The notes beneath the pieces were generated by a model, which saw nothing but the letters and a program-made list of their open reading frames with translations, did no database searches and was not told the origin of the DNA. A program made the position numbers and the translations under genes. Shown here piece by piece: positions 14,514-16,226 of a DNA stretch of 30,148 nt. Source of the stretch: Spirogloea muscicola (lineage: Eukaryota); contig WELB01000004.1 of NCBI GenBank assembly GCA_009602725.1, positions 62,001 to 92,148 on the forward strand, written 5' to 3'. Positions within the stretch are counted from its first letter, which is position 1, and every line of letters begins with the position of its first letter.

Positions 14514-16226
14514 TTAATTGAGACAAGACTTGAAGTTTTCTTGCGCTGCATCAAACACGACCTGCAGTATAGCATTACAAAAGCTCGTCAAGCCTGTCCT
14601 GTGAAGTTGACTCGTGTAAACATCTTGTGAGAGCAGATTCAAAGTACTCTGTGTAGCAAGAATATTGAGCTGCACTAGCTGTCACTGGTTGTACTCGAAG
14701 GTCATTTCATGTACATTTGGGTTGACGAAGCAGTAGTGCTGCTAAATATGTACCTTAAGCGGAACACAAAACTCTCTAGCCAATTTTGCACAGTCTTCAT
14801 ACTCGGGATGAGCAGTCATCTGCACAGGAGTGCATTTCAATTAGAGACCAGTTGTGCTTGCCAGCACCTGTGGCAGAAGTGATGTGCATGGGCCATTGAC
14901 TATCAGGCATGACTGTGAAGGATATGTATGTATGCACCAGCTTGCCACCAAGTGATGCAGCTTTCACAGAAACTGGTCCCCACTCTGTGTTGACAGCTAC
15001 CATTGACCTTTGCAGGCTCACTCGTTCGCACTGATTGATGCGTACGCCAAGGCTAGTGGTCTCCTGCTCAAATGCATGCTGCTGAACGTTAGGGTTCTGC
15101 ACAAAGGTCCAATGCGTCAGCTACAGCTGAGGCAAGGCTGCTTAGATCCTTGCCTGCAGGATGATTTGCAGGAGAACATCAACCTGGCCTTTCCTGCACA
15201 AAACGTTTAGTATCATTCCAGGTCGTCCCTTCTTCATTAAAGCCTGATTCATGGAAATACCAAATTGATCAACGAAACGGAAGATGCTAATCAAACTCCG
15301 ATCAACTTTCCTGAGCAATGTGACTCTGTGAGTGAGCAGCATTGATTTCTATCGGTCGAGCTGCAGTCACGTCCTCAAGATGCCGCTGCTTGAAAGTTGG
15401 TGTCATACACAATTGCATCTCACCTGTACAATCCATGCATCCAAGGCCCCCGCTGCAAGAAGCTGCTCCGTGGTGTATGCCATCTACACCTCCACAGACG
15501 AGCTCTGGTGAGTAGCATCAGAGAGTCATAATTGCTGCACATGATGATACTCCAAAGCACTTGACGAAGTAAGTCAGATTCAAGTCTACGCTCTGCTTGA
15601 TCAACTTCATCAACAGTAAGACTAACTAACTCAATGGCCTACCTACCAGTTGAGGCGACATGTCGTCTACATTCGTCTCCAGGGTCACAAGGTGCTCCGT
15701 CACAACTCCGTCCCCCTGGTGGTCCTCCTGCACGAGCCAATCTGGCCCCATGCACAATGAGACATCAGCATCTCACGCCCATGACAGGTGAAAGGTCGCT
15801 TGTGAAGCAAGACACCAAAGTCACTGTGACCACAAGGCAAGGTACTAGGCCAGTGCCACAGGGATCTATATCACAACAGACATACTATAGCTTATAGTCG
15901 CTCTTCTGCTTTCGCCGGCAGCCAAGGCTTGATCAGCTGGGGAGGTGCCCTACCTCGGCTGCATGCTTGGACGCTCTTGCAATGATCGTGCAGTCTCCAT
16001 TCTCTAGGATCCTTGACGTCCGGCAATCCGAAGTGCGATATGCAGAGCCAGAAGCTGTCCGCAGTCGCCGCCAGCCAGTTGCAGTCCCTCTCAAGCAGTA
16101 CCGCCGGCTCAAACGGTACCGCATGGAGCTGGTTTCGGCTTCAGCTCTTAGCGGCCCGACTGGCAGGCGCTTGGCGCAGCCAAGAACGGCGAGCTCCGCG
16201 GGCGATGCGACGGAGGCAGCCGCCAT
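14514..16226 (-). CDS. LarC (DUF111, nickel-pincer nucleotide cyclometallase) C-terminal-domain-only protein with ~90 aa N-terminal presequence, ~247 aa. Exons 16226-15954, 15727-15647, 15483-15424, 15243-15154, 15063-14938, 14819-14754, 14561-14514
   Basis: Spliced product contains LETNVDDMSPQ, LLAAGALDAW, MKKGRPG, ETTSLGVR, TEWGPVSVK, PEYEDCAKLA...VPLKVVF, the hallmark LarC2 motifs. All introns are phase 0; one GC donor at 15153. Confidence 0.87.

What the first reader, a model, noticed from the sequence alone, without database searches (positions are those of the whole stretch)
14514..16226. Stand-alone, presequence-bearing LarC C-terminal domain in a eukaryote
Seen: an intron-rich (hence genuinely nuclear) gene in which a ~90 aa Ala/Ser/Arg-rich leader splices almost directly onto ETNVDDMSPQ...MKKGRPG...ETTSLGVR...PEYEDC. 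There is no N-terminal LarC1 domain or His-rich region, and no room for one in the 398 bp before the divergent aldolase. Known: bacterial LarC is the CTP-dependent nickel insertase for the nickel-pincer nucleotide cofactor; its C-terminal part binds CTP, and in Lactobacillus plantarum larC1 and larC2 are joined by a ribosomal frameshift. Inference: either a split LarC1/LarC2 pincer-cofactor pathway in a plastid or mitochondrion, or a repurposed CTP-binding domain.
Basis: partly seen in the sequence, partly recalled or inferred. Interest (0 to 1): 0.78.

Follow-up and report, generated by a model that had tools for sequence, protein, structure and literature searches.

The report
Stand-alone LarC2 gene in green algae
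A streptophyte alga's nuclear genome carries a spliced, transcribed gene for only the CTP-binding half (LarC2) of the bacterial nickel-pincer-cofactor nickel insertase, behind an N-terminal extension that likely sends it to an organelle; green algae on both sides of the green lineage's deepest split share this form, so it would be an old and so far undescribed feature of that lineage.

Summary
On the minus strand at 14514-16226 lies a seven-exon nuclear gene. Its exons 2-7 match, in order, only the C-terminal third of LarC (PF01969 positions 238-372, NCBIfam nickel_LarC2). A LarC1 profile finds nothing anywhere in the 30 kb window. Transcript contigs confirm four introns and show that the public 200-aa model wrongly skips the MKKGRPG exon. 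The corrected protein has 247 aa and keeps 30 of 30 LarC-conserved C-domain residues.

The gene is not a one-off. There are three paralogs in this genome (ids in the Spirogloea muscicola format). LarC2-only homologs occur in Closterium, Mesostigma, Chlorokybus, Cymbomonas and Acetabularia. Most carry basic N-terminal extensions that bacterial LarC2 proteins lack. One clade of all these forms is not rejected (p-AU 0.66).

A bacterial precedent for an unlinked split exists. In Negativicoccus massiliensis, LarC2 sits beside LarB and LarC1 lies 486 kb away.

Two things remain unverified. Whether LarC1, LarB, LarE or a LarA-type user exists in these algae could not be tested, because no genome is held.

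Best reading: an organelle-targeted CTP-dependent activating subunit of a split LarC, confidence about 0.5. Main rival: a repurposed CTP-binding enzyme.

The parts
15954..16226 (-). Exon 1. ATG at 16226. It encodes a 91-aa leader rich in Ala, Ser, Thr and Arg, with four Cys. Donor GAG|GTAGGG.
   Evidence: ORF and splice site. Identical to the first 91 aa of public model P0001. 76/91 and 83/91 residues are identical in paralogs P0002 and P0003, with no indels.
15647..15727 (-). Exon 2 (27 aa), EDHQGDGVVTEHLVTLETNVDDMSPQL. This is where the LarC2 domain starts.
   Evidence: PF01969 positions 238-262. A transcript contig joins 15647 to 15483.
15424..15483 (-). Exon 3 (20 aa), MAYTTEQLLAAGALDAWIVQ.
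   Evidence: PF01969 positions 260-280. Contig joints lie on both sides: 15483/15647 and 15242/15423 (cut +1).
15154..15243 (-). Exon 4 (30 aa), ALMKKGRPG...QIILQ. It is missing from all three public paralog models.
   Evidence: Translation. PF01969 positions 276-309, 27.4 bits. Contig joints at 15242/15423 and 15062/15153.
15064..15153 (-). Intron 4, 90 nt, with GC-AG boundaries (GCAAGG...GAGCAG).
   Evidence: A contig skips 90 nt here. The joint is ambiguous by 5 nt, and the +1 register gives GC..AG. Boundaries printed.
14938..15063 (-). Exon 5 (42 aa), ETTSLGVRINQCERVSLQRSMVAVNTEWGPVSVKAASLGGKL. The public model cuts it short at an internal GT after NQCER.
   Evidence: PF01969 positions 306-352, 36.8 bits; NF052512 44 bits. 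PDB 6bwo_A residues 70-106, E 0.0054. Two contigs join 14938 to 14819.
14754..14819 (-). Exon 6 (22 aa), MTAHPEYEDCAKLAREFCVPLK.
   Evidence: PF01969 positions 350-372. Joint 14819/14938.
14514..14561 (-). Exon 7 (15 aa plus TAA stop at 14514-14516), VVFDAAQENFKSCLN.
   Evidence: The exon 6/7 junction is seen in a contig of a paralog; its between-letters read KHHVPLK as in P0002. That contig runs on to 14465, which would be 3' UTR.
16227..16624 (.). 398-bp head-to-head intergenic region shared with the aldolase gene. It holds a 36-nt direct repeat at 48-bp spacing (16439-16474 and 16487-16522).

Best explanation
This nuclear seven-exon gene encodes only the LarC2 domain of the nickel-pincer-cofactor nickel insertase LarC behind a ~95-aa N-terminal extension, and it likely acts as an organelle-targeted, CTP-dependent activating subunit of a split LarC whose nickel-binding LarC1 half would be encoded elsewhere. 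Shown: the gene structure of exons 2-7 and their splicing; the LarC2 identity; the absence of LarC1 from the 30-kb window; retention of every LarC-conserved C-domain residue; the same architecture in chlorophyte and streptophyte algae; and natural unlinked LarC1/LarC2 genes in a bacterium. Inferred from published LarC work (PMC13510736): the domain would form the hexameric core with CTP sites at subunit interfaces and would CMPylate pyridinium-3,5-bisthiocarboxylate mononucleotide (P2TMN). The intermediate would then pass to LarC1 for Ni insertion. Also inferred: import into a plastid or mitochondrion through the basic, Ser/Thr/Ala-rich leader. Untested: the presence of LarC1, LarB, LarE and a cofactor-using enzyme in this alga.
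For: Collinear exon hits to PF01969 positions 238-372 and to NF052512 nickel_LarC2. Transcript contigs join exons 2-3, 3-4, 4-5 and 5-6 at canonical sites, and a paralog contig joins 6-7. The resulting 247-aa protein aligns without internal gaps to the algal homologs. It keeps 30 of 30 columns that are at least 85% conserved in the C-domains of 40 full-length LarCs; nine of ten eukaryote-like LarC2-only homologs (five named algae, four unnamed metagenome forms) keep 27-30 of 30, and the tenth is P0017. The Chlorokybus homolog matches the LarC2 crystal structure 6bwo over the whole domain (E 5.7e-29). Window exon 5 matches the same chain. No LarC1: best E 3.2 among 1145 six-frame pieces. In the visible rows (64 long LarC queries, output cut), every hit with E below 0.01 lay at 14745-15745 and came from the C-terminal part of the query. 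Three paralogs exist. LarC2-only relatives occur in Cymbomonas, Chlorokybus, Mesostigma, Closterium and Acetabularia. They group with the window (8 tips, SH-aLRT 79). A tree holding all 13 short eukaryote-like forms together is 20.35 log-likelihood units better than the free quick tree, p-AU 0.664. 11 of 15 eukaryote-like forms have an extension of at least 26 aa with net positive charge, while 5 of 5 bacterial stand-alone LarC2 proteins start 2-7 aa before the ETNxDD motif. In Negativicoccus massiliensis, LarC2 (NF052512, 1e-44) abuts LarB (NF033503, 4.5e-75), and LarC1 (TIGR00299.2, 1.5e-49) lies 486 kb away.
Against: No LarC1, LarB, LarE or LarA homolog of any green alga was seen. A LarC1-region search listed 120 of 7969 hits, and the only named eukaryotes were brown algae with full-length LarC; this is weak evidence because bacterial hits crowd the list. 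In Moorella LarC, deleting, shortening, stiffening or replacing the LarC1-LarC2 linker strongly lowers activity (PMC13510736 passages), so an untethered pair may work poorly. The leader rests on the public gene model and on ORF preservation among recently diverged paralogs. Its codon-position GC (0.57/0.67/0.64) shows no coding signature. An in-frame ATG at 15751 inside intron 1 could give a leaderless 164-aa protein. The Closterium and one marine homolog have almost no extension. No targeting predictor was available.
Confidence: 0.5

Rival explanations
1. Repurposed domain. Green algae lost LarC1 and the nickel-pincer pathway, or never had them, and keep LarC2 as a stand-alone CTP-dependent nucleotidyl-transferase or CTPase acting on another substrate in an organelle.
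For: No green-algal LarC1 was seen among the hits that could be named. The published statement is that all eukaryotic LarA homologs fall in the GntE branch, with an oomycete as the example (PMC11770544 passages); no green alga is mentioned in the passages and section read. The N-terminal extensions are Cys-enriched in several members: 4 conserved Cys in the three paralogs, 7 in Mesostigma, 5 in one metagenome form. P0017, a unnamed-taxon eukprot LarC2-only relative that groups with the streptophyte forms, has lost 14 of 30 conserved residues, which shows the family can drift to other roles.
Against: All 30 LarC-conserved C-domain residues are kept, in the window and almost fully in nine of the ten eukaryote-like homologs compared. 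This is most simply explained by the same chemistry on the same substrate. A bacterium runs LarC2 unlinked from LarC1 within a lar context. Absence of partners was not actually tested.
Confidence: 0.3
2. Leaderless cytosolic LarC2. Exon 1 is not part of the mRNA. Translation starts at the in-frame ATG at 15751 (MGPDWLVQ-EDHQ...), giving a ~164-aa protein like the 167-169-aa Closterium and marine forms. This concerns location, not chemistry.
For: The ATG at 15751 is in frame and contiguous with exon 2. The Closterium P0012 and marine P0009 models start 6-8 residues ahead of the point 12 residues before the ETNxDD motif. Exon 1 shows no codon-position GC signature.
Against: All three public paralog models use the same exon 1, with canonical GT..AG, no indels and four conserved Cys. 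Transcript-derived ORFs from Acetabularia and an unnamed eukprot taxon, and the Chlorokybus and Mesostigma models, carry extensions of 32-128 aa. The one contig over exon 2 ends 2 nt past the acceptor, at the point where the spliced and unspliced forms would first differ. That last point is a weak hint only.
Confidence: 0.15
3. Decaying remnant of a once full-length LarC, or a bacterial contaminant or recent transfer with no function.
For: The public models of all three paralogs are truncated inside the domain.
Against: The truncations are modelling errors, since contigs show the complete exons. 30 of 30 conserved residues are kept. There are six spliceosomal-type introns and eukaryotic neighbours: PRCC, aldolase, thioredoxin, ribosomal S11. 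The form is conserved in both chlorophytes and streptophytes.
Confidence: 0.03

Closest known systems
Stand-alone bacterial LarC2 (NCBIfam NF052512 nickel_LarC2), e.g. the Negativicoccus massiliensis/succinicivorans 144-148-aa protein
   Same: It contains only the LarC C-terminal domain (PF01969 positions ~240-375). The same conserved motifs are present (ETNxDD, MKKxR, ETTxxGxR, PEYxDC). LarC1 is not adjacent; in N. massiliensis it lies 486 kb away.
   Different: The bacterial protein starts 2-7 aa before the motif and sits in a lar context next to LarB. The algal gene is nuclear, has six introns and a ~95-aa basic extension, and has no lar neighbour in 30 kb. Identity to the nearest bacterial relatives is only about 45-52%, measured on the algal alignment.
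Full-length LarC (Lactiplantibacillus plantarum LarC1+LarC2 joined by programmed frameshift; Moorella thermoacetica LarC; PDB 6bwo/6bwq and 12bi)
   Same: The C-terminal domain is homologous over its full length: the Chlorokybus relative scores E 5.7e-29 to 6bwo and 5.2e-26 to 12bi. By inference it has the same CTP-binding and CMPylating role and the same hexameric core (PMC13510736 passages).
   Different: It has no LarC1 domain, no His-rich Ni site and no interdomain linker. That linker is reported to matter for activity in the fused enzyme.
Eukaryotic full-length LarC (brown algae Scytosiphon promiscuus 495 aa, Ectocarpus fasciculatus 498 aa) and the eukaryotic LarA homolog LarAH15 of Phytophthora nicotianae
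   Same: They show that nickel-pincer pathway genes exist in some eukaryotes (PMC11770544 passages).
   Different: Those LarCs are fused and come from stramenopiles. The green-algal form is LarC2-only and makes its own group in the tree.

Membership tests
LarC2 / C-terminal domain of LarC (PF01969 positions ~238-375; NCBIfam NF052512) | Profile match to the C-terminal part of the family model | tested here: met
   Exon ORFs score 18.1, 13.1, 27.4, 36.8 and 15.8 bits to PF01969 (cut-off 22.1), collinear over positions 238-372. They score 14.3, 17.2, 27.3 and 44 bits to NF052512 (cut-off 50, not reached by any single exon). The truncated public model P0001 scores 58.4 bits. Local LarC2 HMM: five exons at E 1e-12 to 9e-5. 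The joined 247-aa protein could not be given to the library tools.
LarC2 / C-terminal domain of LarC (PF01969 positions ~238-375; NCBIfam NF052512) | Family-conserved residues (ETNxDD, GALD, MKKxR, T..G.R, R, R, K, PE..DC) | tested here: met
   30 of 30 columns that are at least 85% conserved among 40 full-length LarCs are kept. Which of them contact CTP was not looked up, because the 2018 structure paper is not held.
LarC2 / C-terminal domain of LarC (PF01969 positions ~238-375; NCBIfam NF052512) | LarC2 fold, hexamer with CTP bound at subunit interfaces | not tested
   Only by homology: Chlorokybus homolog against 6bwo, E 5.7e-29; window exon 5 against 6bwo, E 0.0054. No structure or complex prediction was run.
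LarC2 / C-terminal domain of LarC (PF01969 positions ~238-375; NCBIfam NF052512) | CTP binding or hydrolysis and CMPylation of P2TMN | not testable with these tools
   Needs a biochemical assay.
Full-length LarC (TIGR00299; PF01969 whole length) | N-terminal LarC1 domain with the His-rich nickel site | tested here: not met
   LarC1 HMM best E 3.2 among 1145 six-frame pieces of the window. The leader has no Pfam or NCBIfam hit. The 95-aa extension holds only 2 His.
Nickel-pincer nucleotide biosynthesis system (LarB, LarE, LarC1+LarC2, plus a LarA-type user) | Partner genes in the same genome | not testable with these tools
   No genome is held for the window. None lies in the 30-kb window among the ORFs scanned (one search covered 90 ORFs of at least 70 aa in about 9-23 kb; one search covered LarC1 in all of it).
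Nuclear-encoded organelle-targeted protein | Cleavable N-terminal targeting peptide | tested here: inconclusive
   The extension is 95 aa, with K+R 16, D+E 9, S+T 17 and Ala 16. Comparable basic extensions occur in 11 of 15 eukaryote-like homologs, with no sequence conservation between genera. No predictor was available and the 5' end was not confirmed.

The most novel reading that the evidence does not exclude
Green algae, and perhaps mosses, keep LarC2 without any LarC1. The domain is then a self-sufficient, organelle-resident CTP-dependent enzyme with a function outside nickel-pincer cofactor synthesis. Alternatively, its Cys-rich N-terminal extension has replaced LarC1 as the metal-handling part, giving a eukaryote-specific route to an organometallic nickel cofactor in the lineage that gave rise to land plants.
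Probability: 0.15. Interest if true: 0.85.

Novelty: new variant of a known kind. Interest (0 to 1): 0.55.

Why it matters
The nickel-pincer nucleotide is one of the few organometallic (Ni-C) cofactors. It is treated as a prokaryotic trait with scattered eukaryotic cases. A conserved, expressed LarC2 gene in chlorophytes and in streptophyte algae up to the Zygnematophyceae would have one of two meanings. Either the cofactor pathway works in an organelle of the green lineage, which would give algae a new nickel requirement and a hidden set of 2-hydroxyacid racemases or other users. Or the CTP-activating half of LarC has an independent job. A natural, untethered LarC2 is also a useful tool for separating the CMPylation step from nickel insertion, which the 2026 cryo-EM work left open. 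In practical terms, the public gene models of all three paralogs are wrong and hide the signature MKKGRPG motif.

Tried and rejected
1. Whole-genome search for partners: no genome is held for this window.

2. Earlier scan notes, by place, by words and by sequence: nothing was found.

3. RNA holders: no listed holder is on record as RNA. One run (X1, guessed RNA, share 0.07) was laid. Exon 1, intron 1 and the intergenic region had no cover at 90% or at 80% likeness. This is a blank, not evidence about exon 1.

4. LarC1-region protein search (P0065 residues 1-140): 7969 hits, of which only 120 were listed. No green alga was among the named ones, and bacterial sequences crowd the list, so it says little.

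5. Metagenome scan with the algal alignment: 80 loci were kept, and in 79 of 80 the LarC2 match lies in one open frame with LarC1. I take these as bacterial because the matches are unbroken by introns; the loci are unnamed. No algal genomic context was gained.

6. ESM Atlas look-up of the Chlorokybus homolog: only bacterial PF01969 clusters came back.

7. The 2018 LarC2 structure paper (CTP-contact residues) is not held under its DOI or its PMC id. I used family conservation instead.

8. Literature searches for a eukaryotic or algal LarC2: LarC+nickel-pincer+eukaryot; DUF111 (word start and whole word); LarC2+CTP+cyclometallase; LarE+LarB+algae; nickel-pincer+alga; LarC+chloroplast. None describes it.

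9. The supplement of PMC11770544 holds no eukaryote taxon list.

10. Codon-position GC of exon 1 gave no coding signal either way.

11. Considered and rejected: LarC1 exons hidden upstream or beyond the aldolase gene; a bacterial contaminant (introns and neighbours); the alternative exon 4 donor after RKGQ joined to NPNVQQ, as in the public model. The contig instead supports the QIILQ|ETTSLGVR junction through a GC-AG intron.

12. No structure or complex prediction was run. The fold is not in doubt, and a pass would only mirror solved LarC2 structures.
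Full report
THE OBSERVATION

The finding's coordinates (14514-16226) are exactly the span of a public gene model on the minus strand, SM000004S14895 at s4:76514-78226. Ids of this format are used for Spirogloea muscicola genes in PMC12290401 (passage seen).

Given separately to Pfam, they hit PF01969 (Ni_insertion) in strict order at profile positions 238-262, 260-280, 276-309, 306-352 and 350-372 of 375. 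Four of them hit NCBIfam NF052512 'nickel_LarC2'.

I built two local HMMs from 40 full-length LarC proteins. With the C-domain HMM, five minus-strand pieces score E 1e-12 to 9e-5 among 1145 six-frame pieces of the window; the next piece has E 7.4. The N-domain (LarC1, 264 positions) HMM has a best E of 3.2. tblastn with 64 long LarC proteins gave, in the rows I could see (the output was cut), hits with E below 0.01 only at 14745-15745, and only from the C-terminal part of the queries.

GENE MODEL

The public protein P0001 (200 aa) and its paralogs P0002 and P0003 lack the MKKGRPG segment and part of the next exon.

Contigs of run X1 cover exons and skip introns at canonical sites, so they derive from spliced RNA. 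They join:
- 15647|15483;
- 15423|15243 (register +1);
- 15154|15063, a 90-nt skip with 5-nt ambiguity, where the +1 register gives a GC-AG intron;
- 14938|14819, in two contigs.

One paralog-derived contig joins exon 6 to exon 7; its extra letters read KHHVPLK, as in P0002.

The resulting model has seven exons: 16226-15954, 15727-15647, 15483-15424, 15243-15154, 15063-14938, 14819-14754 and 14561-14514. It has five GT-AG introns and one GC-AG intron, a 744-nt CDS and a 247-aa product. It aligns to the algal homologs without internal gaps. Exon 1 and its junction to exon 2 rest on the public model.

CONTEXT

The neighbours are ordinary eukaryotic genes:
- a PRCC-like gene ending at 14401, converging on the 3' end;
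- a class-I fructose-bisphosphate aldolase running the other way from a putative ATG at 16625, 398 bp from the LarC2 ATG;
- thioredoxin, a DUF179/AlgH-like gene and ribosomal protein S11.

This is a nuclear locus, and there is neither room for LarC1 nor any similarity to it.

WHAT THE PROTEIN IS

Residues ~96-247 form a complete LarC2 domain. At the 30 alignment columns where at least 85% of 40 full-length LarCs agree, the window protein has the consensus residue at all 30. The Chlorokybus homolog matches the L. plantarum LarC2 crystal structure (6bwo/6bwq/6bwr) at E 5.7e-29 and the full-length Moorella cryo-EM entry 12bi at 5.2e-26, both over the whole domain. Window exon 5 alone matches 6bwo residues 70-106. 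The 91-aa exon 1 has no family hit.

RELATIVES

phmmer of P0001 against 1.84 billion representatives found 954 proteins with E up to 0.001. The best are short, LarC2-only proteins. Their sources name:
- Cymbomonas tetramitiformis, 181 aa;
- Chlorokybus atmophyticus, 209 aa;
- Mesostigma viride, 284 aa;
- Closterium spp., 169 aa;
- Acetabularia acetabulum, 184 aa, a transcript ORF;
- one unnamed eukprot transcript ORF, 285 aa;
- several unnamed metagenome forms.

Pfam sees only positions ~239-375 in them.

I built a tree of 113 C-domains. Of the 149 listed hits, 37 were dropped for lacking the motif or having fewer than 125 residues after it. In this tree the window groups with the named algae (8 tips, SH-aLRT 79). 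Within that group is a subgroup of the window, Closterium, Mesostigma, the unnamed-taxon eukprot ORF P0017 and the unnamed P0043 (SH-aLRT 94). A tree holding all 13 short eukaryote-like forms together is 20.35 log-likelihood units better than the free quick search, with p-AU 0.664. I named that group after seeing the first tree. The LarC2-only form is thus shared by chlorophytes and streptophytes, and a single origin is not rejected.

Nine of the ten eukaryote-like LarC2-only homologs compared (five named algae, four unnamed metagenome forms) keep 27-30 of the 30 conserved residues. One, P0017, keeps only 16.

THE LEADER

The extension ahead of the domain is 95 aa: K+R 16, D+E 9, S+T 17, Ala 16 and four Cys. 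The paralogs keep it without indels and with the same four Cys. It is 76/91 identical between P0001 and P0002, against 100/109 for the rest of the model.

Eleven of 15 eukaryote-like forms have an extension of at least 26 aa with net positive charge and no conserved sequence. Five of five bacterial stand-alone LarC2 proteins begin 2-7 residues before ETNxDD. This is what targeting peptides look like, but I had no predictor.

An in-frame ATG at 15751 could give a leaderless protein.

HOW IT LIKELY WORKS

According to PMC13510736 (abstract and passages read), LarC2 forms the hexameric core of LarC. It binds CTP at subunit interfaces and is proposed to CMPylate P2TMN. The intermediate then moves to LarC1, where nickel is inserted. 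LarC2 forms a hexamer without LarC1. In L. plantarum the two halves are separate ORFs joined by a frameshift. Changes to the linker lower the activity of the fused Moorella enzyme.

A natural split in trans exists. In Negativicoccus massiliensis the 148-aa LarC2 ORF (NF052512, 1e-44) directly follows LarB (NF033503, 4.5e-75). The only LarC1 (PF01969 positions 1-234; TIGR00299.2, 1.5e-49) lies 486 kb away. Among 160 bacterial and metagenome loci, 155 have the fused form. Two (Negativicoccus) are truly split, two are cut by a contig end, and one metagenome locus was not looked at further.

I therefore read the algal protein as the CTP-dependent activating subunit of a split LarC, likely imported into an organelle, with LarC1 encoded elsewhere. 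The chemistry and the partner are inferred. Full residue retention over the chlorophyte-streptophyte divergence is the main argument that the chemistry is unchanged.

WHAT REMAINS OPEN

I could not test whether LarC1, LarB, LarE or a cofactor user exists in this alga. The one LarC1-region search listed only 120 of 7969 hits; the named eukaryotes were brown algae with full-length LarC. The repurposing rival therefore stays at about 0.3.

COMPARISON AND NOVELTY

The protein passes the tests for the LarC2 domain family and fails the test for full-length LarC (no LarC1). Stand-alone LarC2 is a known bacterial kind, with its own NCBIfam model. Nickel-pincer genes are said to occur in 'some unicellular eukaryotes', and all eukaryotic LarA homologs are said to lie in the GntE branch (PMC11770544 passages and section 4).

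Seven literature searches found no description of a eukaryotic LarC2-only family. Automatic labels ('DUF111 family protein') do exist in public databases.

One paper reports a DUF111 domain together with DJ-1_PfpI domains in Physcomitrella PpGlyIII6, Pp3s30_990V3.1, 512 aa (PMC8170915, passage and supplementary table rows). This is a lead that the domain reaches land plants. I could not check it. A 1399-aa Closterium model that joins the domain to a TCP factor, which I read as a merged gene model, shows that such fusions need checking.

VERDICT

This is a real, expressed, correctly recognised LarC2-only nuclear gene, and a new eukaryotic variant of a known split enzyme. It is conserved across green algae. 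Its pathway context is still unknown. Interest 0.55.

Noticed in passing
window 15154-15243 and 14938-15021 (minus strand): The public models of all three paralogs (P0001, P0002, P0003) omit the MKKGRPG exon and all or part of the VSLQR...GGKL stretch of exon 5. Transcript contigs support the longer form, so the deposited proteins are mis-spliced.
   Followed up: yes
window 15064-15153 (minus strand): Intron 4 is a GC-AG intron (GCAAGG...GAGCAG, 90 nt). The public model instead uses a GT donor 30 nt upstream and another acceptor.
   Followed up: yes
window 16439-16474 and 16487-16522: A 36-nt direct repeat (89% identical, 48-bp spacing) lies in the 398-bp head-to-head region between the LarC2 gene and the aldolase gene. 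It could be a duplicated promoter element.
   Followed up: no
window 15954-16226 (minus strand), leader residues 17, 44, 68, 79: The leader holds four Cys, conserved in all three paralogs. N-terminal extensions of several homologs are also Cys-rich: Mesostigma 7, one metagenome form 5 in 48 aa, Acetabularia 3 in 32 aa. This is unusual for a transit peptide.
   Followed up: partly
window 15749-15751 (minus strand): An in-frame ATG inside intron 1 is contiguous with exon 2. It could give a leaderless ~164-aa isoform.
   Followed up: partly
window 14399-14516: The convergent PRCC-like gene stops at 14401, only 112 nt from the LarC2 stop codon (14514-14516). Contigs run continuously over 14400-14563, so the two 3' UTRs abut or overlap.
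   Followed up: no
L082:3231-4432 and L161:1438-2235 (Negativicoccus massiliensis): LarB and a stand-alone LarC2 overlap by 13 nt in one cluster, while LarC1 lies 486 kb away next to a cobT-like gene. This is a natural unlinked split of LarC.
   Followed up: yes
protein P0017 (eukprot transcript ORF, taxon not named): A LarC2-only relative with a 128-aa extension keeps only 16 of 30 conserved residues (for example MKKGR replaced by LLTRGR). It is probably a non-catalytic derivative.
   Followed up: partly
protein P0016 (596 aa, unnamed metagenome source): A full-length LarC in which the first half of the LarC2 domain appears three times in tandem, the first two copies with degenerate motifs.
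   Followed up: no
PMC8170915, text and supplementary tables: Physcomitrella PpGlyIII6 (Pp3s30_990V3.1, 512 aa) is reported to combine DUF111 (PF01969) with two DJ-1_PfpI domains. It is either a real fusion in a land plant or a merged gene model. The Closterium model P0172 (1399 aa) joins LarC2 to a TCP transcription factor, which I read as a merged gene model.
   Followed up: partly
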